DNA of 64,000 bases from Candidatus Omnitrophota bacterium. Its GTDB lineage: Bacteria; Omnitrophota; Gorgyraeia; Zapsychrales; Zapsychraceae. The stretch covers positions 6,539 to 70,538 of the forward strand of contig JAIORP010000012.1 of the NCBI GenBank assembly GCA_021108075.1, written 5' to 3'. How positions within the stretch are numbered: the stretch's first letter is position 1; each line of letters begins with the position of its first letter. Position numbers and translations under genes: made by a program. The notes under the pieces are model-generated. The model was not told the origin of the DNA and ran no database searches. It saw only the letters and a program-made list of their open reading frames with translations. Shown piece after piece: positions 9,965-38,786 of this stretch.

Positions 9965-9976
9965 AAATGAGCGCAT

Positions 9977-20700: not shown

Positions 20701-23700
20701 TGCGGCACGTTTTTATGACCGTTTGAATGTGGAGGAAACGATTTCCTTACAGACAAAACCTCAGGTCGTTCGCGATATTAAAATTATGGGTGTCACGGAA
20801 GCTATCGCGTATTTGTTGCACGCGTCGCCTGAAAAATTATTTGTGCATGAAGCGTATCTTCGGCAATTAGGTCTGGACCTGAATACAATTCGTGAGTGGC
20901 AACGGGAATATCTTGTTAAGCCGGAGCTGCTGAGTCTTTTTAATGAATTTAGAGAGAAAACGGAATTTGTACGGACATATGACGGCCATGATGAGTATTC
21001 GATCGGAGATTTCATTTTCAACGTGAAGAGCGGACAGAGCGCGTTATCTCAGGCTGAGATTCTTCATCATGACCGGCTTCAGGACCGGTTAAGGGGGATT
21101 TGGGGCGGCAGCACGATTATTCATTTGGATCAGCTGGGTGATGTTGTTGTCGACGGGGATAAAAAAAGGTTCGGTTATGTTTCCGTCTGGAATAAAGGCG
21201 AGCTGGTCGGAGAACGTTTGAAGGCGCTGGCTCAAAGAACGGATCCAGACAGTTTGACTGAAGCGCAAATTCTGATCGATCAATTTGTAGAGCAAGAGCA
21301 GCAACTGCACCTGAGAGGGGTTGTCGATAAAAATCCTGATATTATGACGAATCGCCGGATTTTGCCGATGGATAATCAGATGAAAGTGATGGTCGCGAGT
21401 CCGGCCGCCCAGTTGACGATTTGGGAGAATGCGTTATCTGTGTACCAGTCCCGATATGCCTCACGCCGGGCGGATGAGAATATATATTTATCTCCTCAGA
21501 TTTTACAAAGCATTCCAGAGGCGTTCAGGCCCTATTATGAACAAAAAGTAACGGAACAATTGTTGCCTTCTGCCGGACAGACAAAAGAAGACGCTTTTCA
21601 GCAATTTTACAATAATGTCTTTGAACTCGCCTTACATGTCGCGGATCGATCTCCCTTCGGAGACCTGATAAAATTTGGTTTAGTCCGTAATGAACAGGCG
21701 CATTTGATTGTTGAGAATTTGAAGAATACAGACGTGGAACATCCGGCCCTATTTGAACGCCGACTGAATCATATCCGGTTTATTTTTACACGGGCCCTCA
21801 TCGATCAGACCCGTCGTGATTATTTTGATTACGTCAATACGTCAAAAGGAAATCCGCTGCTTGCCTGGACCATGCTTTTTGTTGATTCATACCCGGAAGT
21901 TTATAATAAATTTAATTTGCTCATTAAAATTTTTCTGAACGAATTGATGGAAAATGCGGGATTGTTACAGTCCTTCCCCTCGAATGAAGAACTCTGGCAG
22001 TACATTTCAGCACGGTATCAAGAGACTTATTCTGTTAGAGGGTTAGCGACTCCCGGGTTAAGTGCATATGTGCGGCGTTCTTTTGAATATTTTATCGATA
22101 TCGCCCGTCAAATGCCGTTAAGCTGGGACTTGATACAAGAACGGCCAGCGGTCACCGGTGATTTGGCCTCAGATCCATACGAGTTTTCCCTAACATCTTA
22201 TGCCAATGAAACGCAAGGGTATCCCGATATGATGGGGGTACAAGTTTTAGATGAGCGTGAGTTTGGTCGTCTCAGGACCTATATGGATCAACCGCGTAAA
22301 GCGGTCTTGACAGACCTCGACGGCACAGCAACACTCGTTGATCAGAAATCAGGTCGAGTTAGTGAAAGCGTAAAAGAATCGCATAAGGCCAATATTCAAC
22401 GCTTTGCTGAGCTGGTCACTGATGGCGTCTTAGTTGTTCCGACCACAAACCGCCGGGAGTCAAAAGCGGTTGCTTACGCTGAAGAAATTGATCAGGTCAT
22501 CCAGCAGACTCCCGGGTATCGGTATCGTCAAGATTCTAGGACGGGCGGATCGTTTTTATTGTTTTGGGCCTCTGGGATGAATGGCATGGATGTTGGTCAG
22601 AATAAATTATTAGATGATTTTCAGTTAAAATTTAATCCGCAACAACAGGAAGAGGTCGTTCAATCCTTGCTGAAGGATCAGGTTATCGCGTCACGCGCCA
22701 CAAGACATGTTGAGATCCTTGATGGAAAAATTAATGTTTATTATTCAGGTGGTACGCGCGTAAGCCGGGCAGGTTTTTTAGATGCTATCCGGGGTGTTTT
22801 AGATGGTTTGAATACCCTGGTCCGTCAAGACGGTTTTGCCCCAAAGGGCGAATATTCTTTGCTGCGGGTTGTCGACGGGGGAGAAAATGTCATCTCGATA
22901 CTGCCGCAGGACGCTAATAAGGCCCGGCCAAAGAATTATATTCAAAATCGTTATGCTATATCTGAAGATGAAACATTGATCCTTGTTGACCAACCGCAAC
23001 AAGGACGGGCGGACAATGACCTTGTCCGTTTGTCAGGTATTCATGTTGGGGATGATATCGATGATTTACCAGAAGGAGTTATCAGCACCAAGAAAGCAAT
23101 CGGCCTGGTTGGTCCGCAGGCGGTTCAATGGCTGCTAACAAACACAGAATTTTCTTCTCCTTTTATTGAAGAAGAAACCTTCCGCTCGATACTGGCAAAG
23201 AATATCCCACCGACACGGAATGTCGTCATTGAAAAGGTCGGAAACTTGCGTTTGGTGAGAACTCCCTGGCGCAAAAGACGTGTTAATCCGACAACCCCTT
23301 TTAGCGCGGTTGTTCTTCCCTTTGATCCTGGCCTTTTTAATTTTCGGAACGAAAACATTGATGAAAGCGATATCTTTTTCGAAGGCATTATCGAAGGGCA
23401 GGAAACAACGTTATTGTTGCAAAAGTCTCCCTTTGCCCCCGATCATTTTCTTGTAATTCCTGAGCGTGATCTTGAGCGTCCGCAGGTATTGCAGCCAAAG
23501 GACATCGCTTTTGGTGCCCGGTTTGTCCGTTCGCAAGCTTTGCCGCATTTGCGTTTGGGGTTTACAAGTTTAAAAGGCGGCGCATCTATTAATCAGCTGC
23601 ATATGCAGGCCTTCACGACGATCGAAGACCTTTCCGCGTTAGAATTGGTTCCTAAAAAAGAGGAGTACCGTATTCAAGGCGTCAGTGTGAATGTATTGGA

Positions 23701-26700
23701 AACAATGGAGGACTATCATTATAACGGCCTGATGTTCCATTCAGAGAACATTGAAGACCTTTCTGTTGTTGTTTATCGATACATCGAAATATTGAACCGG
23801 TTTGATATCCCCTATACCGTTAATTGGACCCAGGTCGGGGTGTATGTTATGCCGGTAAGAAGTTCCGTCGGGATACAAGGACGATTGGGTTTTTATGAAC
23901 ATATGGGTTTTGTTATTTCTAAAGATGTCAGCGAAAGCCGAGAGCAGGCTGTCGCAAAGTATGCTGATGAAATGCAATCAGCATCTCTGAACGATGCGGA
24001 CTTTATCCTAACGCATCAGTTTACCTTCTCGACCGAAGAGATTGAAGCTGCATCATTGAGGGAATTATCTTCCCGGTTAAATGAAGGAACGGACCGTCCG
24101 TCTGACGCGGCGATGTTGGGTGGCAGGGATGACAGGAATGAAGAGCGGCTTAATCTGGAGGCGTTAGAAAAGATAAATCTGCAAGCCTACGGGCCCGGGG
24201 GGCGCCATGGACTGATTGACCTGGAAAAATCTTACAATGATTCGCGTGTTTTTATGAGTTATATTTTCGGGTTAGCCGGGGCCGGGATGGTTGGTCTTCC
24301 GACAGCACTAATGACTCAGGACATCTATTCGTCCGCGACGGGGGCGCTCGTTGGTGCCGGGGTCGCGATCGCGACATATGTAAAATTATTTCCACAATCA
24401 AAATATAAAAATATTGAAGAGGGTATCCAGGCGTTGGAGAAAGCGCGTACTCAAGAGGAGATCCAGTCTGCGCGAGGTTTATTTATCGATGGAATGGCAG
24501 GCACAGATTCAGTATTGCTTCATCGTTTGGGCTTAACAGGTTTGGAAACATCGGAAAAATTATTTGCTAAAATGATGGGCGCAGAACAAACAGAGCTTGT
24601 TCTTCCTTCTGATATCCAACCCATCCAGGCTGATCAGATCAGGCAATTAGAAATAAATATGGGACTGGCTGGACTGGCTGATTTGTTAAAGATTGTTGTT
24701 CATGAAAAATTCGCGTACTTTTCCGTTGTTCCATCAATTCCGACCGATGAGCAACGGAAGTCATTAAGGGCCGCGATATCAGACCCTGATGTGATCAGGC
24801 GGCTTTTTAAAAACGTATCTGATGATAGCAATACGATAGAACGCCTGCAAGAAAGGGTATGGCACGGGATCTTTGATCTGTTGTACCGGCAGGATGGAGA
24901 CTCTATATTCTCTCCGGAGTATTTAGAGCTTTACAGGGATAATGAGATTTTTATGGAACAGGGGGTTTTGCGGGAGCTTGCCAATGATCAAGAACGCTCT
25001 CAGGAAGATTATCTGGTTGACGCGGTGAAATCAGAAATTAAAGCGGACAAACAGTATAAAATTCTTGTTTTCGCGACTGGCTCGGGAGCACTGATTAATA
25101 ATTTGTTGCAACAAATTTCAAATATTGGTGAGATCGTTGAATATGACCGTAGCGCTACTTCCAATGAAACGGCTGATCGCAAACGCAGAGAATTGTTGCC
25201 GCCCGATTTATATAATAAAGTTCGGCAGATTACAGCTGATGTTAGAGATTTTAAATCTGAGCTGAATGGCGAAGAGTTTGATTTTATTATTTCCACGGCA
25301 TCATTGCGCCTGATGAGTTCCGAAGCCCGGGAAAGCATATTAGAATTTTTGCAGGAAAAAGCAGGGTTGCGCAAGGGGGGATCGTTTATCTATATGGATA
25401 CCAGGGAGCATTCAGAAATCATGGGGCAGGCGGTCGACCAGATGCGGACGTCCGGTTTTAATGTGAGCGTTGATGATAAGTTTTTCGCGGGCCACAGAGA
25501 CGCGATGTTTTATATTTTTGTGCATCAATACCGAAAGAATCAAATCTTTAGAAATTTTATTGATCAGTTAATGAGCTTAAAGCGTAAAGATAATTTATAC
25601 AATTTTCTTTATGAGATGGCCGGTCACAGGAGAATCAAATTCGAATTATTAAAGGCGACGCAAACATCTGAGAGTTTGAGGAAAAAGAATTTTGAATCAA
25701 TGGTGAATCGATTTTCTGACGCCACAAAACAGATGTTTGGTTCTGTGTTTGAAGATGCACGGGTGACAGTCCAAAAGGGACCCAGTTCACGAATCACAAT
25801 CCGTTTATTTGAAAAGGATCCAGATGTTGATTATTTAGACAGCTATGATATCAGCGTCGATACCGCGCTGGGCCAGGTGTATGCGGTCACTCTTTATGAT
25901 GGGCGGAGTATCGGGAAAAACACTTTAATTGTTGGACGCGCGGTCTTGCAGGATCCAACAGTGGATAGAGTCATTCTGACGCAGCATGTGTTGTCTTCAA
26001 AATATGGATATGATGAAGCGTTAAAGGAATTGAAGTCCGTGTTATCTGAAATATTGCCTGAGGGGATGTTAAATTTTGATGAATCGGAAACATTGGATCG
26101 TTTAGCGACACATGCCGCGGGGTTAACAAAGAGTGATATGTCGGAGGCTATTAACGCCATTCCGGTCGATGCGGAAAATTACGAAGATATGATCATTGAA
26201 GCGTTTCGTTCATATTCTCGAACAGTCTATCCTTCACAAGAGCGTTTGCCTTTCCGGGGAGCGGCAAAGATTTTTCGAGAGAATGCCTCGATGGCGATGC
26301 GTTTGGCCGGCGAAGAGGGTTATTCATCAATTAGCGGACTCGTTTCTTTACCTGATGGTTTTCAAAATTTAGCGTTATATCAGAGGCTTGGTTTTAATCC
26401 GATAATCCCGGAAGGAAGAAGCGATTATTTTGGACAGGTGCAAGCAGCGTTAACAGATAAGAGCGCGGGCGCGACCTTAAAGGAAAAGGCCTGGTATTTG
26501 TCGCAACGTCTGGAGCAATTGATATTACTCGTTCAAAAAGATATTCCTGATCAAGACGCGGCGATGTTGGGCAAAATCAATCGTTATCAACTTAAAAATG
26601 GGGCAACGGTTTTAGGCCCGTTATCTGAGGACGCGTTTAATCAGATGGCAGGCGAAGACGCGTTTTTTCTTGTCAGAGATAAGGAAAAAGGAGTCTATGC

Positions 26701-29700
26701 TCAAAAGACAACCCCCGAGGAGCAGGGTTATAGTGTTGTTGCAACGGAATTTAGTGAGATCGAAACAATTTTTAAGGATGCCGGTGTGGATATGGTCACT
26801 CATATTTTGTCGACGTTATGGGAGAATCCAGATCGTGAAGTCGTCGTGTTAGCTGATGGAGTTGGCCGGGGAGTGGAATTGCAGGGACTTGTTGAAAAAT
26901 TAAAGAAAGAGGTAGAGGCTTTCGGCCTTGATATATCAAAAATCAAAATTTATGGTCTTTCAGACATGTATTTTCAGGACTGGCAGGACGCAGACCCGAT
27001 GATCAATTTTATTCTTGATGATCGAGAGAACTTGCCGGACTATTTCTCGAGAAGGCAAATTGACGTGATGATGAGTTATAAGGGCATTTCTCATATCGGT
27101 CAGCAAGCGGAATATATCAATCATATGAGAATGATGAAGCCGCACTTTAAATACAACGCCTTAATTGTCCATGATTTTTATTTTGGGAATTTAGACGCCG
27201 TTGAATCGATGCTGGAGCGGAATGGTTTTTCGGTTAAGAGGGAACGGTTGCCGGGTATGACGGAGTTATTTGTTCTGCGACCGGTCGATTTTAATAAAGA
27301 TGCGCCTGCCGATGTATCAGAAAACACGAATAGGGAGGTTAAAACGGTGCCGTATCAACAGGCGGAGTTTTTTGAACTCACGCCTGATTACAAACTAGCA
27401 GGAACATACACCACCCGAAAGGGAGAAGAATTCAATATTTATTTTAAAGATAATGATTTTGTGTTGATGAACGTTGAAGGGCAGTTTATCGGTAAGGTTG
27501 TATTTGATTTTACGGAAGAGGGTGTCGCGGAAATTGATTTAGTGCGCGTTTCAGAGTATGTTCAGGGGGAAGGATATCTGTATGATTTGATTGATGCTAT
27601 ATCTTTTTATTTAGGACAATTGGGAGCCGAAAGTATTGTCGTTACGGAAATTTATAATCCATTTTTGTCCTATGTTTTGACAAAAGAATATGGATTTCAT
27701 CCTGAGATTAAAGAGGGTGATGAACGCAAACAATTGATTATTGGTTCACGAGAGCCAGGTGAGAGACTGCCCGTTTATCTTTCCGGAGAAGGCGCTAAGA
27801 AAGTTTTCTCGCCGGGCTCAGGGTATGATGTTCTATTAGAAAAGTTAGATATCCTTGATACCCCTCCCGATGATGGCGTTGTCAGCTATGTGTTTGTTGA
27901 TTATGTTAAGGACGTTAATAACGCGCGATACCAACAGCAAATAAGTTCTGTCAAAAACAGGATGGCGATTGATGGAGAAATTCTTGAGCAAAGGAAGAAC
28001 GAATATCAAACAAAATTTCAGCGACGAGGAACAGACGACATGTCAGAAGATCACCGCGATCAAGCGATGTTGATAACCTATACGGAAAAAGAGTGGCAGC
28101 AAATAGACCAGACGTATCAAATTTTGCAGCAGTTGGCGCAGGTGGTTGATACTCAGATGGAACAGAGTGGTATGGTTGAAATTTTTGATGTCTTCCGTCA
28201 ATGGCTCAATCAAGGACCGCGGGATGCTTTGGCCCAAATCGAATTGATTGAGGACCCTCAGGAACAACAGGAAGCTTACCAGAAATTAAGCGCTGCCCTA
28301 TCACGTTTTGTTCATGAATTTGAGACAACATATGATCATGTATCGAAAAGATGGGGGCAGGAAATCGCGGGCGTTAACGGCCGGTCCTTTGTTCAATTTG
28401 ATACGGATGGGAAGGTCCTTTCTTATCCATGGTTTGATTTGACGTATGACCTGAATGACAAGTTGGATAAACTGGCCACCTTTATTCTTGGCTGGGGGAA
28501 GCTTTTGGTTACGGATGGCGCTGTTGCCAAAGATAATTTTTTGCTTTTGGTCAACAAATTGGAATCTACGTACCGCATATGGGATGGTTACCGGCAATAT
28601 TTGCGCCATGTTGCGGATCCGCTGTCAATTCAAGATAGTCAGATCGCGGATAATCAAGAAGAAAGAACACAGCCGCGTTTGGGTTATGATGAGTTTTTAT
28701 TGCCGTACCGCAATGCGTTATTAGCGCGCGATGCGGACCAGGATACTTTGGAGCAACCGCGTGAAGAATATGTTGCCCTGGTGGATGCGCAGGGGAATTT
28801 TTTGCGGGCTGTTCCACGTTCTGAGCGTAAAAATAAGGCGCCGGATGAATTTACTCAGGGTGCTGTTATTATTGTTGTCGATGAGGATGGGAATGTTTTG
28901 ATGCAGCAGCGATCAGAAGGGAAGATGGAAGGGCACGAAACCTTTGGCCCCATGGATTGGACCATCGGGGGGCATCGTTCTGATGAGGATGCCGACATTG
29001 AAGCCGCTGCTTTGCGCGAAGGCAATGAAGAGGCCGGGGGCATTATCAATTTTAAGAAATCAAATCTGGTGCAGATCGATCAGCGTCCTGTTAATCCGGA
29101 CACGGATGGCCGCTGGGTGCGCTCAACGTTCATTTATGTGGTCAGTGCAACAGAGAAGAACAATATTCAGGAACAGATGATCGAGGGCTGGCAAGGGAAT
29201 GACGAAGTTGACGGCTGGGAGTGGTGGGGGCAAGATGATTTTACAACAGAGGCAAAAACGAGCCAGAAATGGTCAACCGTGATTGATCTGTTAAGAGACA
29301 TTCCTGATTTTCCGGCGATGGTAGAAACGGCTGTTGTGGGTGTTACGCAGCGTCGCCGAGATAGCACGGTTCGAGACGGGGCAGCACTGACAACCTATAC
29401 GGAAAAAGAGTGGCAGCAAATCGACCGGACCTACCAGACGCTGCAGGAGATCGCCTTAAGCGTTCAGGGGAAATTGCAGGAAACAGGTATGACCACTCTC
29501 TTTCTACGCATCGACCAGTTCCTGGTCCAGGAGGACCCACGGCTGATGTTTGAACAATTACAAGACTTACCGAGCAAAGAGGCTCAAGATCGGGTTTATG
29601 CGGTAATAAACACGGCCATGCAGGGCTATGCCCTGAATATCAAAACCATGTATCAGGAAAACATATCAGAGATTGACGCTCAACTCGCCCGGATCAAAGG

Positions 29701-30313
29701 CCGATCCTTTGTTCAATTTAGCGCGGAGGGGGCATTGGAAGCATACTCTGCAGAGGAGTTGATCTATGACATCAAAGATAAGATAGGCAAAATAACGACT
29801 AATATTTTTTCCTGGTGGGATATGCTGTCATCAGACGGTGATCTCCCAAGGGAACAATTTTTGTTTATGCTGGATCAGTTTGAATATGCGAGTGAGGCAT
29901 TCCATCAGTACCGTTCTTATCTGGGACACATTCTTCAACCAATTCGTATTCTGGATGAAGATATCGTTGACAACCAAGAAGAACAAAGCCACCCACGGCA
30001 AAGCTATGATCAATTTTTACTGCCCTACCGTGATGCGTTGATCGCGCGTGATACCGCAGTCCAGGACGCTGCCATGCTGGGCAGAGAGCAAAGTGACAAT
30101 GTCGGTGGTATCGATCTTAATCCCGCCAATTTGAATCTGCGCATCAAGCGTGACGGGGATGGTCAGCCGTTGCCGTTTGATGCCCAACCGATCGATAGTA
30201 TTAACATTGAAGGACTGGTCCCTGTGATCATTAATGTTACACCGATCATAAACCTGCCGCTATTGCTTGGAGCGGCTGAGCCGGGTGAAGTCGATCAGGT
30301 CCTATCCCTTTAA
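17711..30313 (+). CDS. Giant (~4,200 aa) secreted or membrane-associated multidomain protein
   Basis: Uninterrupted 12.6-kb ORF with an N-terminal signal peptide. Domains by motif: PRK/uridine-kinase-like P-loop (GISGLPGGGKT...YDPVTG), HAD (LTDLDGTA...GDDIDD), HIT/GalT-like (HFLVIPERD, INQLHMQ), hydrophobic hairpin, class-I MTase-like (ILVFATGSGAL), GNAT-like (QGEGYLYDL), Nudix box (GGHRSDEDADIEAAALREGNEEAGG) and tandem ~230-aa repeats. The C-terminal ~75 aa are shared with the ORF at 47473. Confidence 0.8.
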   Translation: MPSKSMSYKLFCLFLILALGVHMIMPATGFAQGMISLPIPGEMVRVSPVFDPMMIRGVMVSPDNPFELKFLMDSGDAILADEALKKEGQGLIKYFLATLTTPDEDLWVNLSPYENDRIMANEFGQTEMGRDMLAQDYLLKQLTASLMYPEEELGRRFWERVYEEAYKRFRTTNILVNTFNKVWIIPEYADVYEKDGVAYILDCRLKVMLEEDYIASQQVLGNAAWARKLGVADLTEEDKANLFASQSDPLKAILKEIIVPEIEREVNEGRNFGQLRQIFYSMILATWYKERLKNSILNHVYSNQKKINGIDVEDKDIKEKIYQQYITAFKRGVYNYIKEQYDPQKGEVIPRKYFSGGATWINIKDVTRYHKELPSNFDKVPRSDFAMLTRLDDSAQAAPRAMDAAMLDTSGRQRARQDAFEKLVRDRFEFDNVIASFNDLLKGANLKVYPSRADLYQYEGGLDTGSYFFTKLVGYGLDAQRKYIALRRLIEQDQFLDFISGEATFSRGDLLRILKNKELDDELDLILKDQDSYDDFISMLADRDYMDILFSHTGTAEIYIENNKLVAQLPNTQLVDVLGFISFSPEDRNIEFLLSENSMAQFLFDIRRQVLPLLVEAAQEYGWGFRSPLEVELSDAVRPIANVISRVREQELERFLGQDTFSRRVEDLEHGAFQNLKDLFQERKQQGQPVMIGISGLPGGGKTQKDKRVAAAIAEVVKEDIVIIDEDRFIKQRAPVDTRGEGLGGKFDWSAHDQSLKDLREGRSVMAQMYDPVTGGNPMLALTEAGNIIILNGNRTITIVADKDQNLFDLIEEEHQPGQPAQVIRHHFKTENLTQSGPFTSGSTVYQFKIENGKLMVGFQGYDVLRLEEQNAPRNILAMTQYEIDLTREDLVARIQLSGEHKHLEAQSVFPLNVVSDRMDVNAVSRAILLKEVIPTDKPIVFSGTHAYTQYKDNKFVSNDQIFDVSLYYQTPWIVRWTRDWLRSQERGKQRGEQLGNAARFYDRLNVEETISLQTKPQVVRDIKIMGVTEAIAYLLHASPEKLFVHEAYLRQLGLDLNTIREWQREYLVKPELLSLFNEFREKTEFVRTYDGHDEYSIGDFIFNVKSGQSALSQAEILHHDRLQDRLRGIWGGSTIIHLDQLGDVVVDGDKKRFGYVSVWNKGELVGERLKALAQRTDPDSLTEAQILIDQFVEQEQQLHLRGVVDKNPDIMTNRRILPMDNQMKVMVASPAAQLTIWENALSVYQSRYASRRADENIYLSPQILQSIPEAFRPYYEQKVTEQLLPSAGQTKEDAFQQFYNNVFELALHVADRSPFGDLIKFGLVRNEQAHLIVENLKNTDVEHPALFERRLNHIRFIFTRALIDQTRRDYFDYVNTSKGNPLLAWTMLFVDSYPEVYNKFNLLIKIFLNELMENAGLLQSFPSNEELWQYISARYQETYSVRGLATPGLSAYVRRSFEYFIDIARQMPLSWDLIQERPAVTGDLASDPYEFSLTSYANETQGYPDMMGVQVLDEREFGRLRTYMDQPRKAVLTDLDGTATLVDQKSGRVSESVKESHKANIQRFAELVTDGVLVVPTTNRRESKAVAYAEEIDQVIQQTPGYRYRQDSRTGGSFLLFWASGMNGMDVGQNKLLDDFQLKFNPQQQEEVVQSLLKDQVIASRATRHVEILDGKINVYYSGGTRVSRAGFLDAIRGVLDGLNTLVRQDGFAPKGEYSLLRVVDGGENVISILPQDANKARPKNYIQNRYAISEDETLILVDQPQQGRADNDLVRLSGIHVGDDIDDLPEGVISTKKAIGLVGPQAVQWLLTNTEFSSPFIEEETFRSILAKNIPPTRNVVIEKVGNLRLVRTPWRKRRVNPTTPFSAVVLPFDPGLFNFRNENIDESDIFFEGIIEGQETTLLLQKSPFAPDHFLVIPERDLERPQVLQPKDIAFGARFVRSQALPHLRLGFTSLKGGASINQLHMQAFTTIEDLSALELVPKKEEYRIQGVSVNVLETMEDYHYNGLMFHSENIEDLSVVVYRYIEILNRFDIPYTVNWTQVGVYVMPVRSSVGIQGRLGFYEHMGFVISKDVSESREQAVAKYADEMQSASLNDADFILTHQFTFSTEEIEAASLRELSSRLNEGTDRPSDAAMLGGRDDRNEERLNLEALEKINLQAYGPGGRHGLIDLEKSYNDSRVFMSYIFGLAGAGMVGLPTALMTQDIYSSATGALVGAGVAIATYVKLFPQSKYKNIEEGIQALEKARTQEEIQSARGLFIDGMAGTDSVLLHRLGLTGLETSEKLFAKMMGAEQTELVLPSDIQPIQADQIRQLEINMGLAGLADLLKIVVHEKFAYFSVVPSIPTDEQRKSLRAAISDPDVIRRLFKNVSDDSNTIERLQERVWHGIFDLLYRQDGDSIFSPEYLELYRDNEIFMEQGVLRELANDQERSQEDYLVDAVKSEIKADKQYKILVFATGSGALINNLLQQISNIGEIVEYDRSATSNETADRKRRELLPPDLYNKVRQITADVRDFKSELNGEEFDFIISTASLRLMSSEARESILEFLQEKAGLRKGGSFIYMDTREHSEIMGQAVDQMRTSGFNVSVDDKFFAGHRDAMFYIFVHQYRKNQIFRNFIDQLMSLKRKDNLYNFLYEMAGHRRIKFELLKATQTSESLRKKNFESMVNRFSDATKQMFGSVFEDARVTVQKGPSSRITIRLFEKDPDVDYLDSYDISVDTALGQVYAVTLYDGRSIGKNTLIVGRAVLQDPTVDRVILTQHVLSSKYGYDEALKELKSVLSEILPEGMLNFDESETLDRLATHAAGLTKSDMSEAINAIPVDAENYEDMIIEAFRSYSRTVYPSQERLPFRGAAKIFRENASMAMRLAGEEGYSSISGLVSLPDGFQNLALYQRLGFNPIIPEGRSDYFGQVQAALTDKSAGATLKEKAWYLSQRLEQLILLVQKDIPDQDAAMLGKINRYQLKNGATVLGPLSEDAFNQMAGEDAFFLVRDKEKGVYAQKTTPEEQGYSVVATEFSEIETIFKDAGVDMVTHILSTLWENPDREVVVLADGVGRGVELQGLVEKLKKEVEAFGLDISKIKIYGLSDMYFQDWQDADPMINFILDDRENLPDYFSRRQIDVMMSYKGISHIGQQAEYINHMRMMKPHFKYNALIVHDFYFGNLDAVESMLERNGFSVKRERLPGMTELFVLRPVDFNKDAPADVSENTNREVKTVPYQQAEFFELTPDYKLAGTYTTRKGEEFNIYFKDNDFVLMNVEGQFIGKVVFDFTEEGVAEIDLVRVSEYVQGEGYLYDLIDAISFYLGQLGAESIVVTEIYNPFLSYVLTKEYGFHPEIKEGDERKQLIIGSREPGERLPVYLSGEGAKKVFSPGSGYDVLLEKLDILDTPPDDGVVSYVFVDYVKDVNNARYQQQISSVKNRMAIDGEILEQRKNEYQTKFQRRGTDDMSEDHRDQAMLITYTEKEWQQIDQTYQILQQLAQVVDTQMEQSGMVEIFDVFRQWLNQGPRDALAQIELIEDPQEQQEAYQKLSAALSRFVHEFETTYDHVSKRWGQEIAGVNGRSFVQFDTDGKVLSYPWFDLTYDLNDKLDKLATFILGWGKLLVTDGAVAKDNFLLLVNKLESTYRIWDGYRQYLRHVADPLSIQDSQIADNQEERTQPRLGYDEFLLPYRNALLARDADQDTLEQPREEYVALVDAQGNFLRAVPRSERKNKAPDEFTQGAVIIVVDEDGNVLMQQRSEGKMEGHETFGPMDWTIGGHRSDEDADIEAAALREGNEEAGGIINFKKSNLVQIDQRPVNPDTDGRWVRSTFIYVVSATEKNNIQEQMIEGWQGNDEVDGWEWWGQDDFTTEAKTSQKWSTVIDLLRDIPDFPAMVETAVVGVTQRRRDSTVRDGAALTTYTEKEWQQIDRTYQTLQEIALSVQGKLQETGMTTLFLRIDQFLVQEDPRLMFEQLQDLPSKEAQDRVYAVINTAMQGYALNIKTMYQENISEIDAQLARIKGRSFVQFSAEGALEAYSAEELIYDIKDKIGKITTNIFSWWDMLSSDGDLPREQFLFMLDQFEYASEAFHQYRSYLGHILQPIRILDEDIVDNQEEQSHPRQSYDQFLLPYRDALIARDTAVQDAAMLGREQSDNVGGIDLNPANLNLRIKRDGDGQPLPFDAQPIDSINIEGLVPVIINVTPIINLPLLLGAAEPGEVDQVLSL

Positions 30314-30557: not shown

Positions 30558-30624
30558 ATGATCCTACGGGTGTGTGCACCCAAAGAATTAAATCCGTTTA
30601 ATTTCAATATCAAAGGTGAAGTCT

Positions 30625-32442
30625 ATGAGTGTAGAATTCAAGCAGACGATCAAAGAAATCTGTGAAGCCTGTGGTAACGACCGTTCCCTGATGATGGACG
30701 TTGTTATTGCGACGCAAAAGCGTTTTGGCTGTGTTTCCAATGAGGCGATGGATCTTATTGCTGAGAATATGAACGCCCATCGCGTCGAAGTAGAAGGCGT
30801 TGTTTCCTTCTATTCCTTCCTGTCGCCTGACCCCAAAGGTCAAGTCGTCATCCGGTTATGTAATGATGTTGTTGATCAAATGCAAGGCGTTCAAGCCGTT
30901 GCCGAGGCCTTCAAAAAAGAACTCGGCATTGATTTCGGCCAAACCACTCCGGACGGAAAAATTACCCTCGAATGGACTCCCTGTATCGGGATGTGCGATC
31001 AAGCCCCGGCCGCTCTCATCAATGATATGGTTTTTACCTATCTCTCCACAGATAAAGTCCGTGAAATTACGGATGAATTAAAAAAACATGGGGACCCGGA
31101 ACAGATTCCTATTCGCTATGGTGACGGGAATAACGCCCATGATCTGGTCAAATCCATGGTGAATAATGGACTGAGAAAAAAAGGCGCGGTTATCTTTGGC
31201 CAGCATGAAGCCGAAAAGGGTGTAAAGAATGCGCTGTCTATGAGTGCTGTTGAGGTCATTCGGGAAGTGAAGAACGCCCGTTTACGCGGTCGGGGAGGAG
31301 CCGGTTTTCCAACAGGGATGAAATGGGAATTCACCCGCGCGGCTGATGGCGATAAAAAGTATATCCTCTGTAATGCGGACGAAGGGGAGCCGGGCACATT
31401 TAAAGACCGTGTTATCCTCACGGAACGCGCGGATTTGCTTTTTGAAGGTATGACAATCGGCGGTTACGCGGTCGGATCAGATGAAGGAATTTTGTATTTG
31501 AGAGCTGAATATGCCTACTTACGCGCTTTCCTGGAAAATGTTTTGAAGGAAAGACGAGATAGGGGTCTTTTAGGAAAGAACGCTTGTGGTAAAGACGGTT
31601 TTGATTTTGACATCCGCATTCAGATGGGTGCGGGGGCCTATATATGCGGGGAAGAAACAGCCTTGATCAGTTCCTGTGAAGGCCTTAGAGGTGATCCGAA
31701 GAACCGGCCGCCTTTTCCCGCGCAAAAAGGTTATAAGGAGTGTCCGACATCGGTGAATAATGTTGAAACGTTCTGTGCTGTCGCCCGTATTTTGGATAAA
31801 GGGGCGGCCTGGTTTTCTGAAGTCGGTTCTCAGGGAAGCCCGAGCACGAAGTTGCTCAGTGTGTCCGGTGACTGCACGAATCCCGGCGTTTATGAATTTC
31901 CATTCGGGATGAGGGTCGATGATTTATTAAAAAAAGTTGGGGCGCAGGATGTCCAGGCTGTTTTGATTGGTGGTCCGTCTGGACAGCTGATCGGTTCAGC
32001 TGATTTTGAGAGAACGATTTGTTACGACGATTTGGCCACGGGCGGTTCGGTTATCGTTTTTAATTCCAAACGGAATATTCTTGAGATCGTTGGCCAGTAT
32101 ATGGACTTTTTCGTCGAAGAAAGTTGTGGATACTGCACGCCTTGCCGGGTGGGTAATGTTTTGCTCAGGAACGGTATTGAGAAAATTATTCATGGGCAGG
32201 GGGAAAAAGCAGACCTCGATTACCTTCAGGAATTGGGGGAAACCGTTAAATTGGCCAGCCGTTGTGGATTGGGGCAGACATCACCGAACCCTGTCTTAAC
32301 AAGCCTGAAAAATTTTAGAGCTGTTTACGAAGCCGTTTTGATTGAACCAACTGACGGACAGCAACCTTCGTTTGATATTAAAGCTGCCTTAAGCGTTTCA
32401 GAAGACTTAACAGGTCGTAAATCTGAGATATATAAAGATTAA
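30625..32442 (+). CDS. hoxF: NAD(P)-linked [NiFe]-hydrogenase diaphorase subunit HoxF (NuoE-NuoF fusion)
   Basis: N-terminal NuoE-like 2Fe-2S motifs (CNDVVDQ...CIGMCDQAPAALIND), then GRGGAGFPTGMKWEF, LCNADEGEPGTFKDR, EESCGYCTPCRVGN; AAAGGTGA RBS before ATG 30625. Confidence 0.88.
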   Translation: MSVEFKQTIKEICEACGNDRSLMMDVVIATQKRFGCVSNEAMDLIAENMNAHRVEVEGVVSFYSFLSPDPKGQVVIRLCNDVVDQMQGVQAVAEAFKKELGIDFGQTTPDGKITLEWTPCIGMCDQAPAALINDMVFTYLSTDKVREITDELKKHGDPEQIPIRYGDGNNAHDLVKSMVNNGLRKKGAVIFGQHEAEKGVKNALSMSAVEVIREVKNARLRGRGGAGFPTGMKWEFTRAADGDKKYILCNADEGEPGTFKDRVILTERADLLFEGMTIGGYAVGSDEGILYLRAEYAYLRAFLENVLKERRDRGLLGKNACGKDGFDFDIRIQMGAGAYICGEETALISSCEGLRGDPKNRPPFPAQKGYKECPTSVNNVETFCAVARILDKGAAWFSEVGSQGSPSTKLLSVSGDCTNPGVYEFPFGMRVDDLLKKVGAQDVQAVLIGGPSGQLIGSADFERTICYDDLATGGSVIVFNSKRNILEIVGQYMDFFVEESCGYCTPCRVGNVLLRNGIEKIIHGQGEKADLDYLQELGETVKLASRCGLGQTSPNPVLTSLKNFRAVYEAVLIEPTDGQQPSFDIKAALSVSEDLTGRKSEIYKD

Positions 32443-32467
32443 ATCATTGATAACATAAGGACGATTT

Positions 32468-33187
32468 ATGAGTGAAAAAACGATAACATTTACTATTGAT
32501 GGTGTTGAAGTCAAGGGGGCACCCGGTCAAACTATTCTTGATGCGGCTGATGCCGCGGGTATTTATATTCCCCGTCTGTGTCACTTCAAAGGCCTGAATC
32601 CGCACGGAAGTTGCCGCGTGTGTACCGTCATTGTGAACGGCCGGCCGCAAGCCGCCTGCACGCAACCCATCGCCGAAGGAACGACAGTTGAAAATGATAC
32701 GGAAGATATAAAGAAACACCGCAGCAACATCGTTGATATGATGTTTGTGGAGGGGAATCATTTTTGCATGTTCTGTGAAAAGAGCGGCAATTGTGAACTG
32801 CAGGCCCTTGCCTATCGTTTAGGTATCTGTGCCCCGAAATATCCGTTTCAATTCCCTGACTGCACGCTCGACGCGTCTCATCCGGATATCTTTATTGACC
32901 GCAATCGTTGTATATTATGTGGCCGCTGTGTTCAGGCGTCGAAAGATCTTGATGGGAAGTGTGTTTTTGAATTTGTCGGACGCGGCGCGGAAAAGAAAAT
33001 TGCTGTTAACGCCGAGGCGAAGTTATCTGACACGAATGTTGATGTGACGGATAGAGCGGTTAATATCTGTCCGGTTGGTGCCATTTTGAAGAAGCGTGAA
33101 GGCTTTAAAATTCCTATTGGGGAACGGATGTATGATGCTCAACCGATTGGTTCTGACATAGAGTCTGATACCAAATCCATTAAGTAA
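32468..33187 (+). CDS. hoxU: Hydrogenase diaphorase Fe-S subunit HoxU
   Basis: 2Fe-2S N-terminal domain (CHFKGLNPHGSCRVC), HFCMFCEKSGNCELQ and CILCGRCVQAS cluster motifs; ~239 aa. Confidence 0.82.
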   Translation: MSEKTITFTIDGVEVKGAPGQTILDAADAAGIYIPRLCHFKGLNPHGSCRVCTVIVNGRPQAACTQPIAEGTTVENDTEDIKKHRSNIVDMMFVEGNHFCMFCEKSGNCELQALAYRLGICAPKYPFQFPDCTLDASHPDIFIDRNRCILCGRCVQASKDLDGKCVFEFVGRGAEKKIAVNAEAKLSDTNVDVTDRAVNICPVGAILKKREGFKIPIGERMYDAQPIGSDIESDTKSIK

Positions 33188-33308
33188 TTGTTCTATTTTA
33201 ATTCTGATATTTTTGCCTTAGAGTCGAGGAAATCAGAACCGGTTTTGGTAATGATACCAATGATTGAATTTGGTCTCGTTATTCGTACTATTATTTAATG
33301 GAATGGGT
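33168..33308 (-). repeat. MITE-like element, copy c (reverse orientation, composite); left TIR overlaps the last codons and stop of hoxU
   Basis: GATACCAAATCCATTAAGTAATTGTTCTATTTTAATTCTGATATTTTTGCCTTAGAGTCGAG...ATTATTTAATGGAATGGGTCT matches the reverse complement of copy b. An extra partial TIR pair sits at 33250..33280. Confidence 0.65.
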
Positions 33309-33354
33309 CTAAATAACAATTTATATTAATTTATTTGGGAAAAGGTAAAGAATT

Positions 33355-33900
33355 ATGGAAAAACCAAAAATTGCTACTGCTTCGCTCGCGGGTTGTTTTG
33401 GCTGTCATATGTCTTTATTGGATATTGATGACCGCATCCTGAAACTTTTTGAGCTCGTTCAATTTGATAAATCCCCTATTGATGATATTAAGAAGTTTAC
33501 GGGCCAGTGCGCTATAGGCCTGATTGAGGGGGGATGTTGCAATGAAGAAAATGTTCATAACCTGCAGAATTTTCGTAAGCATTGTGGCATCCTGATCTCT
33601 GTCGGTGACTGCGCGATCAATGGCGGGATTCCAGCGATGCGCAATAACATTCCTTTAAAAGAATGCTTTGACGAGGCCTACAGGGATGGACCTTCGGTTT
33701 ATAATCCTGAAGGTATTATTCCGAATGACAAAGAAATCCCTCTTCTGTTAGATAAGGTTTATCCTTGCCATCATGTGGTTAAAGTTGATTATTATTTGCC
33801 AGGTTGTCCACCGCCTGCTGATACACTGTGGGAAGCGCTTGTGGCCTTGTTAAGCAATAAGCCGCTTGATTTACCTTATGAGTTAATAAAGTATGATTAA
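33355..33900 (+). CDS. hoxY: [NiFe]-hydrogenase small subunit HoxY
   Basis: CFGCHMS proximal-cluster cysteines, GGCCNEE, LPGCPP; ~181 aa as in bidirectional hydrogenase small subunits. Confidence 0.8.
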   Translation: MEKPKIATASLAGCFGCHMSLLDIDDRILKLFELVQFDKSPIDDIKKFTGQCAIGLIEGGCCNEENVHNLQNFRKHCGILISVGDCAINGGIPAMRNNIPLKECFDEAYRDGPSVYNPEGIIPNDKEIPLLLDKVYPCHHVVKVDYYLPGCPPPADTLWEALVALLSNKPLDLPYELIKYD

Positions 33901-33923
33901 TTTTTTAATGTGGAGATAAAGCC

Positions 33924-35366
33924 GTGAGCGATCAAAATTTAAAAAGAGTTATCATTGAGCCCGTCACTCGTGTTGAGGGGCATGGCAAAGTGTCGATCCT
34001 TTTGGATCAAGATAACAAAGTTAAACAGGCTCGGCTGCATATTGTCGAGTTCCGGGGCTTTGAACGTTTTATTCAAGGCCGACCTTATTGGGAAGTTCCC
34101 GTCCTGGTTCAACGTTTATGCGGTATCTGTCCGGTGAGTCATCATCTGGCGGCCGCTAAGGCCATGGACTGGATTGTGGGCGGAGAGAATCTGACTCCCA
34201 CCGCCGAGAAGATGCGCCGTTTGATGCATTACGGTCAGACGTTTCAATCCCATGCCTTACATTTTTTCCATCTCTGTTCACCTGATCTATTGTTTGGTTT
34301 TGACGCTGATCCATCCATCCGCAACGTGATCGGTGTCGCCCGGAAATATCCTGATTTGGCTGTGCAAGGGGTGATGATGCGCAAATATGGTCAGGAAATC
34401 ATTAAAGCCACCGCAGGGAAAAAGATCCATGGCACGGGCGCGATCCCCGGCGGGGTCAATAAGAATTTGTCCATTGAAGAACGGGATGTCTTTCTGAAAG
34501 ATATTGACCAGATGCTGGAATGGGGCAGAGGCGCTTTAAAAATCGCCAGAGATTACACGATTGAAAATTTGGATAAGGTGAAGGATTTTGGATCCTTTGA
34601 GTCGAACCATGCCGGTCTGGTCCGCAAAGATGGCTGCCTTGATTTGTATGACGGTTATTTGCGGGCTGTTGACTCCCAGGGCAATCGGATATTGGATGAC
34701 ATGGACCCTCAAAAATATACCGAGTTTATTCAAGAAGGTGTGAAGTCCTGGACATACATGAAATTCCCATTCTTGAAATCGATTGGGCCTGAAGATGGAT
34801 GGTATCGTGTCGGTCCGTTATCGCGTATCAATGTGTGTGATTTCATTGACACACCGGAAGCCGAAGCCGCCCGTAAAGAGTTTAAGGCCATTACAGATGA
34901 TAAACCGAATCATATCACGATGGCGTATCATTGGACGCGCATGATTGAGGTCCTGCACTCGATCGAAAAAATTAATGAATTGTTGCACGACACTGACCTG
35001 CAGGGGACTGATCTGGTTGTTAAAGGCCAGAGAAGAGAAGAGGCGGCCTCGATCCTTGAAGCGCCACGCGGATCCCTGTTCCATCATTATAAGGTCGATG
35101 AAAATGATCAAGTTGTGATGGCGAACCTGATTGTCTCGACGACAAATAACAATGAACCTATGAACCGCGCGGTGACAAAGGTCGCGGAAGATTATCTCAG
35201 CGGTCAGGCCGAGATCACGGAAGGTTTATTGAATCATATTGAAGTGGCTATCCGCGCCTATGATCCGTGTTTGTCTTGTGCGACGCATGCGATGGGTAAG
35301 ATGCCTTTGATTGTGAGCCTGTTTGATCATGAGGGTCAGTTGCTTGATAAGAAAGTTAAGGAATGA
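33924..35366 (+). CDS. hoxH: [NiFe]-hydrogenase large subunit HoxH
   Basis: N-terminal RVEGHG...RLCGICPVSHHLA (L1 Ni-binding) and C-terminal DPCLSCATHAMG (L2); 480 aa. Confidence 0.9.
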   Translation: MSDQNLKRVIIEPVTRVEGHGKVSILLDQDNKVKQARLHIVEFRGFERFIQGRPYWEVPVLVQRLCGICPVSHHLAAAKAMDWIVGGENLTPTAEKMRRLMHYGQTFQSHALHFFHLCSPDLLFGFDADPSIRNVIGVARKYPDLAVQGVMMRKYGQEIIKATAGKKIHGTGAIPGGVNKNLSIEERDVFLKDIDQMLEWGRGALKIARDYTIENLDKVKDFGSFESNHAGLVRKDGCLDLYDGYLRAVDSQGNRILDDMDPQKYTEFIQEGVKSWTYMKFPFLKSIGPEDGWYRVGPLSRINVCDFIDTPEAEAARKEFKAITDDKPNHITMAYHWTRMIEVLHSIEKINELLHDTDLQGTDLVVKGQRREEAASILEAPRGSLFHHYKVDENDQVVMANLIVSTTNNNEPMNRAVTKVAEDYLSGQAEITEGLLNHIEVAIRAYDPCLSCATHAMGKMPLIVSLFDHEGQLLDKKVKE

Positions 35367-38725: not shown

Positions 38726-38786
38726 CGGGCAGGCAGGGATCGTTCCTTACGATTGTTTTTACGCAGGAACAGGAGGATGTGTTTAT

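What the first reader, a model, noticed from the sequence alone, without database searches (positions are those of the whole stretch)
30085..30313. Shared ~75-aa C-terminal module in both proteins (candidate sorting or secretion signal)
The giant ORF ends ...DAAMLGREQSDNVGGIDLNPANLNLRIKRDGDGQPLPFDAQPIDSINIEGLVPVIINVTPIINLPLLLGAAEPGEVDQVLSL. The dual-GGDEF ORF (51064..51309) ends ...DQAMLTARLDNTPVGGIDLDPALLDLKIKRDGEGIALPLLQQPPEALQIEGFIPVIMNVTPVQTLPIFLGNLATEGDTLAQL. A conserved terminal module on two very large exported proteins is the pattern seen for C-terminal sorting domains (such as T9SS CTD, PEP-CTERM and LPXTG). This one (GGIDLxPAxLxLxIKRDGxG...IEGxxPVIxNVTP...LPxxLG) matches none of those I know.
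Basis: partly seen in the sequence, partly recalled or inferred. Interest (0 to 1): 0.75.

Follow-up and report, generated by a model that had tools for sequence, protein, structure and literature searches.

The report
Omnitrophota C-terminal bookend module
The two proteins share a real, unnamed ~70-residue end-piece that, together with a shared signal peptide and ~325-residue front-piece, brackets unrelated enzyme "cargo" in thousands of proteins of the uncultured phylum Omnitrophota, so it looks like half of a phylum-specific protein-handling tag whose machinery is unknown.

Summary
ORF A (17699..30313, 4204 aa) and ORF B (47473..51309, 1278 aa) share a C-terminal module (56% identity, E 4e-18).

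The module is not a private duplication. A profile finds it in 4536 clusters (at 50% identity) of public proteins, at the extreme C-terminus in all 150 listed hits. All named sources with good context are Candidatus Omnitrophota MAGs. In 80 fetched genomic loci, every intact reading frame with the C-module that lies wholly inside the fetched DNA starts with the N-module.

The cargo between the two modules is unrelated in 98% of protein pairs. Where it is annotated, it consists of cytoplasm-type enzymes such as GGDEF, NUDIX, methyltransferase, PGM, PGI, UGPase and REC.

The C-module matches no Pfam or NCBIfam model, no PDB sequence and no PDB fold. It lacks the motif, TM helix and basic tail of sortase or exosortase signals. 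No export or sortase gene is a conserved neighbour.

Best reading (about 0.45): it is the C-terminal half of a two-part, phylum-specific targeting or retention tag on Sec-exported modular proteins. It works like a sorting domain but belongs to no known family.

The cargo regions also carry strongly enriched junction motifs (DxAML, SSPV).

The parts
17699..30313 (+). ORF A, 4204 aa counted from the first TTG. Public annotations start at ATG 17711 (MCD4779116.1, 4200 aa) or ATG 17726 (4195 aa). Build: leader, N-module, multi-enzyme cargo, C-module.
17711..17803 (+). ORF A Sec-type leader: MPSKSMSYK, a hydrophobic stretch LFCLFLILALGVHMIM, then PATGFA|QG.
   Evidence: Sequence; Kyte-Doolittle 2.2; family-wide leader statistics.
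17804..18787 (+). ORF A N-terminal bookend module (aa 36-363, ending at PRKYFSGG).
   Evidence: 52% identity to ORF B, E 7e-104. The profile finds at least 1421 proteins. No Pfam, NCBIfam or PDB match.
30065..30271 (+). ORF A C-terminal module core (aa 4123-4191): DAAML, linker, VGGIDLNPANLNLRIKRDGDGQPLP..IEGLVPVIINVTPIINLPLLLG.
30272..30313 (+). ORF A acidic variable tail (AAEPGEVDQVLSL) and stop codon.
47473..51309 (+). ORF B, 1278 aa (identical to MCD4779131.1). Build: leader, N-module, two GGDEF domains plus a further C-terminal stretch with no Pfam match, C-module.
47473..47583 (+). ORF B Sec-type leader (..SRKILSVTLCLFLILISTPVPLVRA|QT).
47584..48543 (+). ORF B N-terminal bookend module (aa 38-357).
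51061..51270 (+). ORF B C-terminal module core (aa 1197-1266): DQAML, linker, VGGIDLDPALLDLKIKRDGEGIALP..IEGFIPVIMNVTPVQTLPIFLG.
51271..51309 (+). ORF B variable tail (NLATEGDTLAQL) and stop codon.
18860..18931 (+). Two DxAML junction motifs just after the ORF A N-module (DFAML at aa 388, DAAML at aa 407).
24104..24118 (+). DAAML junction motif, ORF A aa 2136.
26555..26569 (+). DAAML junction motif, ORF A aa 2953.
28058..28072 (+). DQAML junction motif, ORF A aa 3454. It marks the start of the first copy of an internal 240-aa duplicated module.
29375..29389 (+). DGAAL (variant motif), ORF A aa 3893. It marks the start of the second copy of the duplicated module.
48565..48579 (+). DLAML junction motif, ORF B aa 365, directly after the N-module.

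Best explanation
The ~70-residue block is the C-terminal half of a two-part 'bookend' specific to Candidatus Omnitrophota. A cleavable Sec-type leader plus a ~325-aa N-module sits at the front and this C-module sits at the very end. Interchangeable enzyme modules lie between them.

The C-module has three parts:
- a small Gly/Pro-fixed beta-rich mini-domain (GGIDLNP..L.L.IKRDG.G.PLP);
- a proline-punctuated hydrophobic stretch (GF.PVIINI.PV.NLP.LLG);
- a 12-54 aa acidic tail.

Most likely it is not catalytic. It probably serves as a common handling tag. After Sec export, a trans-acting machinery encoded elsewhere in the genome would read it, and/or it would act together with the N-module. The outcome would be to route, retain or display the cargo at the envelope, or to pass it on to a host or prey cell.

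Shown here: the module's reality, its terminal position, its phylum-wide spread, its coupling to the N-module and leader, the unrelatedness of the cargo, and the absence of homology to known domains. Inferred: that the leader is cleaved, that the proteins leave the cytoplasm, and that the module acts as a targeting or retention signal.
For: Spread and position: a profile of 7 copies hits 4536 clusters (2056 at E<=1e-10). In all 150 listed hits the match ends near the C-terminus, in proteins of 79-4763 aa.

Taxonomy: 232 tblastn-confirmed places in species-representative genomes. The best 80 are nearly all titled Omnitrophota; 18 are titled 'uncultured Planctomycetales' and one simply 'bacterium'. 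Several fall in one genome, often in tandem. The window's own proteins are annotated as Candidatus Omnitrophota.

Coupling to the N-module: 57 stop-to-stop frames in the 80 loci carry both modules. Every N-module frame that ends inside a locus has the C-module, except interrupted genes.

Cargo and bookends: among 111 non-redundant full-length members, only 98 of 6105 pairs share any cargo similarity. N-modules stay at a median 51% identity and C-modules at 40%. N and C identities co-vary (Spearman 0.40; 0 of 300 permutations reach it).

Leader: typical Sec features in 112-114 of 116 complete members.

Fold: AlphaFold2 gives a confident small fold (pLDDT 80-92 over residues 21-70 of the 90-aa query), so this is a folded unit and not just a linear motif.

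Conservation: invariant or nearly invariant G, P, R, D and Q positions across 122 copies.
Against: No export, sortase or protease gene is a conserved neighbour. The best non-family cluster is generic TPR, in 14 of 80 loci.

Annotated cargo consists of cytoplasm-type, often NTP-dependent enzymes: GGDEF, NUDIX, SAM methyltransferase, PGM, PGI, UGPase, NDK and REC. These have no obvious role outside a cytoplasm unless they are delivered into another cell.

In one locus (L058) the module is internal and is followed by a protein-kinase module.

The N-module also occurs without the C-module, followed by TM segments instead.

There is no experimental or proteomic evidence for export or processing. 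The AlphaFold model has low pTM (0.36).
Confidence: 0.45

Rival explanations
1. Docking or assembly module. The C-module binds the N-module, either of the same chain (closing the protein into a loop) or of another family member (head-to-tail). This would build a multi-enzyme coat or chain on the cell surface, with no dedicated sorting enzyme needed.
For: N and C modules strictly co-occur on intact genes. Their divergence is correlated. There is no conserved accessory gene nearby. Genes are often in tandem. [quoted passage not shown] L058 looks like a covalent fusion across a C-module.
Against: Correlated divergence is also expected from simple co-inheritance. In the full-length AlphaFold model of P0251 the C-module is less confident (pLDDT 63-88) and less ordered than when modelled alone, which gives no sign of docking. 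Inter-domain contacts could not be inspected.
Confidence: 0.2
2. C-terminal membrane anchor. The hydrophobic stretch GF.PVIINI.PV.NLP.LLG inserts into a membrane and tethers the exported protein.
For: In ORF A this 19-mer is the only strongly hydrophobic segment besides the leader (Kyte-Doolittle 1.93). Some N-module proteins carry ordinary TM helices in place of cargo plus C-module (P0208, P0193, P0169).
Against: Three invariant or nearly invariant prolines and a conserved Asn lie inside the stretch. ORF B scores only 1.45. AlphaFold predicts short strands and a 7-residue helix, not a TM helix. The following tail is acidic, not basic. The upstream 35 residues are conserved as strongly as the stretch itself, which an anchor does not need.
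Confidence: 0.12
3. Intramolecular pro-domain or quality-control tag. The module is needed only transiently, for example to keep the very long chain export-competent or to time folding, and is then removed at the preceding junction motif.
For: A junction motif lies within 30 residues upstream of the module's GGID motif in 27 of 121 proteins that have it: DxAM[LMA] in 14 and SSP[VIML] in 13. Both window proteins have DxAML there. The same motifs separate cargo modules at domain-like spacing (median 236 aa).
Against: No protease was identified. The motif is absent upstream of the module in most members (94 of 121). There is no evidence of cleavage.
Confidence: 0.1
4. A divergent member of a known sorting family (T9SS CTD, PEP-CTERM, LPXTG, GlyGly-CTERM, MYXO-CTERM or the T1SS signal).
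For: Terminal position and a Sec leader, as in T9SS and sortase substrates. A CPBP (Rce1-like) protease gene, the enzyme class of myxosortase, lies at 44615..45937 upstream of ORF B.
Against: None of 122 copies hits any Pfam or NCBIfam model through the module, even at E<=1. There is no PDB sequence or fold match. The tripartite build is absent. CPBP homologues lie within 8 kb in only 2 of 80 loci.
Confidence: 0.03

Closest known systems
T9SS C-terminal domain (CTD; Pfam PF18962 Por_Secre_tail, TIGR04183/TIGR04131) of Bacteroidota
   Same: It is a folded domain of tens of residues at the extreme C-terminus of Sec-exported proteins with unrelated cargo. There are many substrates per genome, and the domain is restricted to one phylum-level lineage.
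   Different: There is no sequence or predicted-fold similarity. The module is shorter: a core of about 55-70 aa with 4 short strands and a helix in the model, against a 7-strand Ig-like sandwich. It is followed by an acidic tail. It is always paired with a 325-aa N-module. The carriers are Omnitrophota. No T9SS genes were seen in the window.
Sortase/exosortase-type tripartite signals (LPXTG, PEP-CTERM, GlyGly-CTERM, MYXO-CTERM)
   Same: It is a C-terminal tag with a hydrophobic stretch on proteins that have N-terminal signal peptides.
   Different: There is no short signature followed by a clean TM helix and an Arg/Lys cluster. The hydrophobic stretch carries invariant prolines, the tail is acidic and 12-54 aa long, and the conserved part extends about 35 aa upstream as a folded unit. 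No model matches.
Two-partner secretion (type Vb) TPS domain of TpsA/CdiA/FhaB exoproteins
   Same: The logic of the front half is the same: a Sec leader followed by a conserved ~250-330-aa N-terminal domain on very large exoproteins whose remainder is variable.
   Different: The comparison concerns the N-module, not the C-module. There is no PF05860 match, and the predicted fold is mixed alpha/beta with long helices, not a beta-helix. No TpsB gene is adjacent.
MARTX toxins (conserved N- and C-terminal repeat regions flanking exchangeable effector domains that are released by cleavage after Leu at inter-domain linkers)
   Same: Conserved ends bracket a variable string of cytoplasm-type effector enzymes in proteins of 1-5 thousand residues. 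A short recurrent inter-module motif ends in Leu and is followed by a small residue (DxAML followed by A, S, T or G in about 80% of sites).
   Different: MARTX toxins use T1SS (no Sec leader), glycine-rich repeats and an internal cysteine protease domain. None of these was detected here. The resemblance is in architecture only and rests on my knowledge of MARTX, not on a test.
Omnitrophota giant proteins ('Archaeovorins' and related; bioRxiv 10.1101/2023.11.21.568195 and 10.64898/2026.06.07.730766)
   Same: The phylum is the same. The Pfam content of the cargo overlaps (NUDIX, GGDEF, methyltransferase, HAD, PGM, starch synthase, REC). A signal peptide is predicted.
   Different: Those papers classify by Pfam content and TM topology. 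As far as the text searches show, they do not describe these N- and C-terminal modules or the junction motifs. The family here is mostly 0.8-5 thousand aa, not above 10 thousand.

Membership tests
T9SS C-terminal sorting domain | Match to PF18962 / TIGR04183 / TIGR04131 | tested here: not met
   0 of 122 C-modules hit these models at E<=1. The two window copies have no hit at E<=0.01.
T9SS C-terminal sorting domain | Ig-like beta-sandwich fold of about 70-100 aa | tested here: not met
T9SS C-terminal sorting domain | N-terminal Sec signal peptide on substrates | tested here: met
   Leader features are present in 112-114 of 116 complete members. This is a heuristic; no SignalP run was possible.
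T9SS C-terminal sorting domain | T9SS core genes (PorU/V, Sov, PorKLMN) in the genome | not tested
   None appears among the window ORFs scanned. Whole genomes were not examined.
Sortase/exosortase/rhombosortase/myxosortase signals | Signature motif, then a TM helix, then a basic cluster at the C-terminus | tested here: not met
   The hydrophobic stretch holds invariant or nearly invariant P61, P68 and P73. The tails are 12-54 aa and acidic in most of the 154 tails listed.
Sortase/exosortase/rhombosortase/myxosortase signals | Match to a curated sorting-signal model (NCBIfam/TIGRFAM) | tested here: not met
Sortase/exosortase/rhombosortase/myxosortase signals | Cognate processing enzyme co-occurring or adjacent | tested here: inconclusive
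   A CPBP protease with TPR lies at 44615..45937, but homologues lie near family genes in only 2 of 80 loci. Genome-wide co-occurrence was not tested.
T1SS / RTX C-terminal secretion signal | No N-terminal signal peptide; GGxGxD nonapeptide repeats upstream of the signal | tested here: not met
   Leaders are present. No RTX (HemolysinCabind) hit in ORF A or B.
Type V autotransporter beta-domain | C-terminal beta-barrel of at least 250 aa (PF03797) | tested here: not met
   The module is about 70 aa. No Pfam hit.
TPS domain (type Vb), considered for the N-module | PF05860 match and a right-handed beta-helix fold | tested here: not met
MARTX toxins | Glycine-rich A/B/C repeats and an internal cysteine protease domain (Peptidase_C80) | tested here: not met
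   No such Pfam hits in ORF A or B, nor among the families matched by 33 other members.

The most novel reading that the evidence does not exclude
The leader, N-module and C-module together form a self-contained, Omnitrophota-specific delivery scaffold for strings of cytoplasm-type enzymes. This would be analogous to MARTX or CdiA but unrelated to them. The bookends would take the cargo out of the cell and onto or into a host or prey cell. The enriched DxAML and SSPV junction motifs would be processing sites at which individual effector modules are released. That would amount to a new protein secretion or effector-delivery route, and it would give the first sequence-level rule for where Omnitrophota long or giant proteins are cut.
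Probability: 0.2. Interest if true: 0.85.

Novelty: new variant of a known kind. Interest (0 to 1): 0.68.

Why it matters
Omnitrophota are uncultured, mostly ultra-small bacteria suspected of predatory or parasitic life. Their long and giant proteins are a recognised puzzle. Published work classifies them by Pfam content and leaves open how they are exported and whether they are cut.

A phylum-wide pair of unnamed terminal modules around hypervariable enzyme cargo gives three things:
- a simple sequence handle (two HMMs) to enumerate a whole class of probably exported or displayed proteins in every Omnitrophota genome;
- a concrete target for finding the missing machinery by phylogenetic profiling;
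- candidate junction or processing motifs that make the 'are they cleaved?' question testable by proteomics.

If the tag proves to be a sorting domain, it would add a new C-terminal sorting system outside Bacteroidota and Firmicutes.

Tried and rejected

2. Conserved-neighbour analysis of 80 loci with 8-kb flanks. Only promiscuous families turned up: TPR, PAS-histidine kinase and ABC ATPase, with MlaE/MlaD in 6 loci. There is no candidate machinery.

3. The CPBP protease next to ORF B as a candidate sorting enzyme. Homologues lie near family genes in only 2 of 80 loci, so this is not supported.

4. Stand-alone small C-module proteins as a separate gene class. On long contigs they sit at the end of strings of small same-strand ORFs in low-coverage long-read assemblies, or after frameshifts or an in-frame TAA. 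I read them as broken long genes.

5. Genome-specific concerted evolution of the tag. This was not computed. The only indication is that the window's two copies (56% identical) are no closer to each other than to copies from other metagenomes (up to 67%).

6. AFDB Foldseek search. The library was unavailable.

7. N-C docking. I hoped to read it from the full-length P0251 model, but only pLDDT and secondary structure are returned, so contacts could not be assessed.

8. Literature. The motif strings are absent from the library. Three Omnitrophota papers do not mention the modules.

9. The single Por_Secre_tail hit among 33 members could not be localised to a protein or position.
Full report
**1. 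The observation**

The window holds two large same-strand reading frames:
- ORF A, 17699..30313, 4204 aa
- ORF B, 47473..51309, 1278 aa

BLASTP aligns A aa 4123-4191 with B aa 1197-1266 at 56% identity (73% positives, one gap, E 4e-18). A tblastn of either end against all six frames of the window finds only these two copies. The shared block is about 70 aa, at nt 30065..30271 and 51061..51270. The last 12-13 residues differ between the two proteins.

ORF B does carry two GGDEF domains. ORF A carries NUDIX, a SAM methyltransferase and weaker P-loop kinase-like matches.

Both proteins begin with a hydrophobic leader followed by a ~325-aa module that is 52% identical (E 7e-104).

**2. Not a private duplication**

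The window's proteins are in public databases as Candidatus Omnitrophota MAG proteins: MCD4779131.1 'diguanylate cyclase' and MCD4779116.1 'NUDIX domain-containing protein'. The rest of the window is an ordinary anaerobe chromosome. It carries Cas1/Cas4 with a 47-repeat CRISPR array, [FeFe] and [NiFe] hydrogenase subunits, HypD/E/F, an MCP and a histidine kinase.

A profile of seven C-modules was scored against 1.84 billion representative proteins. It hit 4536 clusters at E<=1e-3 and 2056 at E<=1e-10. In all 150 listed hits the match ends near the end of the protein (median 10.5 residues from the envelope end to the protein's end). Protein lengths range from 79 to 4763 aa.

A scan of one genome per species found 232 confirmed places. 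The best 80 are nearly all in MAGs titled Omnitrophota. Eighteen are titled 'uncultured Planctomycetales' and one simply 'bacterium'. Several fall in one genome, often as tandem genes.

A few short contigs are labelled as archaea or Deltaproteobacteria. They are partial and are probably binning noise.

**3. The C-module is one of two bookends**

Of the 89 C-module hits of at least 450 aa, 59 carry the N-module at about aa 40-360. The rest look like fragments.

In the 80 loci, 57 stop-to-stop frames have both modules. Every N-module frame that ends inside the fetched DNA also has the C-module, apart from three interrupted genes:
- an in-frame TAA in L001
- a frameshift in L046
- a run of N in L037

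Small 'stand-alone' C-module ORFs on long contigs sit at the end of strings of small same-strand ORFs in low-coverage long-read assemblies. They are broken long genes.

There are two real exceptions to the simple picture:
- In L058 the module is internal and is followed by a protein-kinase module.
- The N-module also occurs without the C-module, followed by ordinary TM segments instead (P0169, P0193, P0208).

The N-module family is itself large, with at least 1421 proteins among the 8000 candidates scored.

**4. Conserved ends, unrelated middles**

Among 111 non-redundant full-length members:
- N-modules have a median 51% pairwise identity.
- C-modules have a median 40% pairwise identity.
- Only 98 of 6105 pairs (1.6%) share any detectable cargo similarity.
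- N and C identities co-vary (Spearman 0.40; none of 300 permutations reaches it). This shows co-inheritance or co-evolution but cannot tell the two apart.

The annotated cargo in 33 members is cytoplasm-type: REC, phosphoglucomutase, UDP-glucose pyrophosphorylase, phosphoglucose isomerase, NDK, starch synthase and CofD. Most cargo has no Pfam match. This content overlaps the Pfam 'modules' reported for Omnitrophota long proteins in bioRxiv 10.64898/2026.06.07.730766.

**5. Anatomy of the module**

The consensus of 122 copies is VGGIDLNPALLDLQIKRDGNGVPLP...QPI..M.I.GF.PVIINITPV.NLPLLLG. Invariant or nearly invariant positions (numbering of the 90-aa query) are G22, G23, I24, I35, R37, D38, G41, P43, L44, P45, Q49, I56, G58, P61, I63, I64, P68 and P73.

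A tail of 12-54 residues follows. It is mostly acidic. In one large subgroup it ends ...KAREPEE[IV]S.LN, and elsewhere it often contains an LS motif near the end.

AlphaFold2 with the 122-row alignment gives pLDDT 80-92 for residues 21-70 of the 90-aa query. The model has four short strands and a seven-residue helix over LPLLLG (mean pLDDT 73, pTM 0.36).

Hydropathy finds only two hydrophobic segments in ORF A: the leader, and the C-module stretch GLVPVIINVTPIINLPLLL (Kyte-Doolittle 1.93). The ORF B equivalent scores 1.45.

**6. The leader**

In 116 complete N-module proteins:
- The median leader is 42 residues.
- 112 have a net positive n-region.
- 114 have a hydrophobic core with Kyte-Doolittle >= 2.0.
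- 112 have an A-[QEHS] site in the c-region (typically ..PP..YA|Q..).

This is the classical Sec/SPase I pattern. Cleavage and export are inferred, not shown.

**7. Comparison with known families**

No Pfam or NCBIfam model matches the module. This holds for the two window copies at E<=0.01 and for 122 copies at E<=1. The few hits there fall on flanking cargo fragments. NCBIfam holds the curated C-terminal sorting-signal models, so this is a direct negative test for PEP-CTERM, LPXTG-type, GlyGly-CTERM, MYXO-CTERM and T9SS type A/B.

Other negative results:
- Profile search of PDB sequences: 0 hits for either module.
- Foldseek against PDB for the C-module: nothing at E<=1e-3.

The sortase or exosortase build (motif, clean TM helix, basic tail) is not present. 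The stretch has three fixed prolines and the tail is acidic.

The literature held here does not describe the modules. The motif strings occur in no relevant paper. Two preprints on Omnitrophota giant proteins and Seymour et al. 2023 discuss signal peptides, TM helices, Pfam content and possible cleavage by C39 or S8 peptidase domains. By text search they mention neither module and give no cleavage points.

**8. Genomic context**

All-against-all clustering of non-family ORFs in the 80 loci (8 kb either side) gives no conserved partner:

| Cluster | Loci (of 80) |
|---|---|
| Generic TPR | 14 |
| PAS-histidine kinase | 10 |
| ABC ATPase | 7 |
| MlaE | 6 |
| MlaD | 6 |

The CPBP (Rce1-like) protease with TPR upstream of ORF B (44615..45937) has homologues near family genes in only 2 of 80 loci. 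Any reader of the tag is therefore encoded elsewhere, or there is none.

**9. Junction motifs (a side finding that bears on mechanism)**

ORF A contains D-x-A-M-L six times plus one DGAAL. ORF B contains it twice. In both proteins one copy lies right after the N-module and one right before the C-module.

An unbiased 4-mer enrichment over the cargo of 122 non-redundant members puts these at the top: SSPV (44-fold), ASSP (30), SSPI (28), DSAM (28) and DAAM (27).

| Motif | Observed in cargo | Expected from shuffles | Proteins with motif (of 122) |
|---|---|---|---|
| D.AM[LMA] | 111 | 4.4 | 44 |
| SSP[VIML] | 124 | 3.6 | 33 |

Only about 5 proteins carry both motifs.

Spacing between successive motifs has a median of 236 aa, which is domain-sized.

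ORF A holds a 240-aa internal duplication (aa 3453-3690 and 3892-4131, 40% identity, E 4e-58). Both copies start exactly at the motif.

The residue after DxAML is A, S, T or G in about 80% of sites.

These motifs are therefore module junctions. Whether they are cleavage sites is unknown.

**10. What it most likely is**

The evidence supports a phylum-specific two-part tag around exchangeable cargo. By architecture it works like a terminal sorting or retention domain. The closest analogies are:
- the T9SS CTD, for the back end;
- the TPS domain of two-partner secretion, for the front end;
- MARTX toxins, for 'conserved ends, effector string, inter-effector motif'.

It is a member of none of these.

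I rate the explanations as follows:

| Explanation | Confidence |
|---|---|
| Targeting or retention tag read by machinery elsewhere | 0.45 |
| N-C docking or self-assembly | 0.20 |
| Plain membrane anchor | 0.12 |
| Transient pro-domain | 0.10 |
| Known sorting family | 0.03 |

The main unexplained point is why NTP-dependent cytoplasm-type enzymes (GGDEF, NUDIX, UGPase, NDK, REC) carry a Sec leader. Delivery into another cell would explain it and would fit the proposed predatory or parasitic lifestyle (PMC10066038). That is inference only.

**11. Verdict**

The module is real, widespread, unnamed in the libraries searched and not described in the literature searched here.

Noticed in passing
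   Followed up: yes
window 18860..18874, 18917..18931, 24104..24118, 26555..26569, 28058..28072, 29375..29389, 30065..30079, 48565..48579, 51061..51075: A recurrent DxAML motif sits at module boundaries. Family-wide, D.AM[LMA] is about 25-fold enriched and an alternative motif (A/S)SSP[V/I] about 35-fold (SSPV alone 44-fold). The two are nearly mutually exclusive between proteins. Spacing is domain-sized (median 236 aa). These are candidate junction or processing sites.
   Followed up: partly
window 28055..28768 and 29372..30091: ORF A has an internal duplication of a ~240-aa module with no Pfam match (40% identity, E 4e-58). The two copies flank the NUDIX domain, and both start exactly at the DxA(M/A)L motif.
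   Followed up: partly
window 2041..5420 (with 45..968 and 1262..1867): A CRISPR array of 47 identical-scoring 37-nt repeats (Rfam CRISPR-DR7), preceded by Cas1 and Cas4 genes.
   Followed up: no
window 44615..45937: A CPBP/Rce1-like intramembrane protease fused to TPR repeats lies 1.5 kb upstream of ORF B. This is the enzyme class of myxosortase. Homologues lie near family genes in only 2 of 80 other loci (L022, L030).
   Followed up: partly
L058 (CAYZIY010000004.1), aa 2669-2756 of an open frame of at least 5414 aa: Here the C-module is internal. After ..PMLLG and a short acidic stretch the frame continues into a protein-kinase-like module. This is either a gene fusion across a lost stop codon or evidence that the module need not be terminal.
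   Followed up: partly
L001 3185..3187; L046 6609..6678; L030, L038, L063; L082, L083: In about 6 of 85 cases the C-module is separated from the main frame by an in-frame TAA or a frameshift. In low-coverage long-read contigs the whole gene is shattered into small ORFs. These are most likely assembly errors or pseudogenes. Programmed recoding is not excluded.
   Followed up: partly
P0169, P0193, P0208 (N-module proteins): Some N-module proteins lack cargo and C-module and end in one or more ordinary TM helices instead. This suggests the N-module acts at the outer face of the cytoplasmic membrane.
   Followed up: no
one of the 33 family members in alignment A6: One full-length family member has a Pfam Por_Secre_tail (T9SS CTD) match at E 1.8e-6 somewhere in its sequence. 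The protein and the position were not identified.
   Followed up: no
window 8630..13578 and 30616..35366, 36389..41506: There are two hydrogenase gene sets: an [FeFe] group A hydrogenase with a NuoF-like subunit and a response-regulator-fused 2Fe-2S (NuoE-like) subunit, and a NuoF/NuoG-like plus [NiFe] small and large subunit set. HypF, HypD and HypE follow. ORF A sits between the two sets.
   Followed up: no
C-terminal tails of family members: One large subgroup has a strongly conserved 27-aa tail, LADTEQD.DE..PAMKAREPEE[IV]S.LN, ending the protein. Other tails often carry an 'LS' motif 3-6 residues from the end. The tail may therefore be a second recognition element.
   Followed up: no
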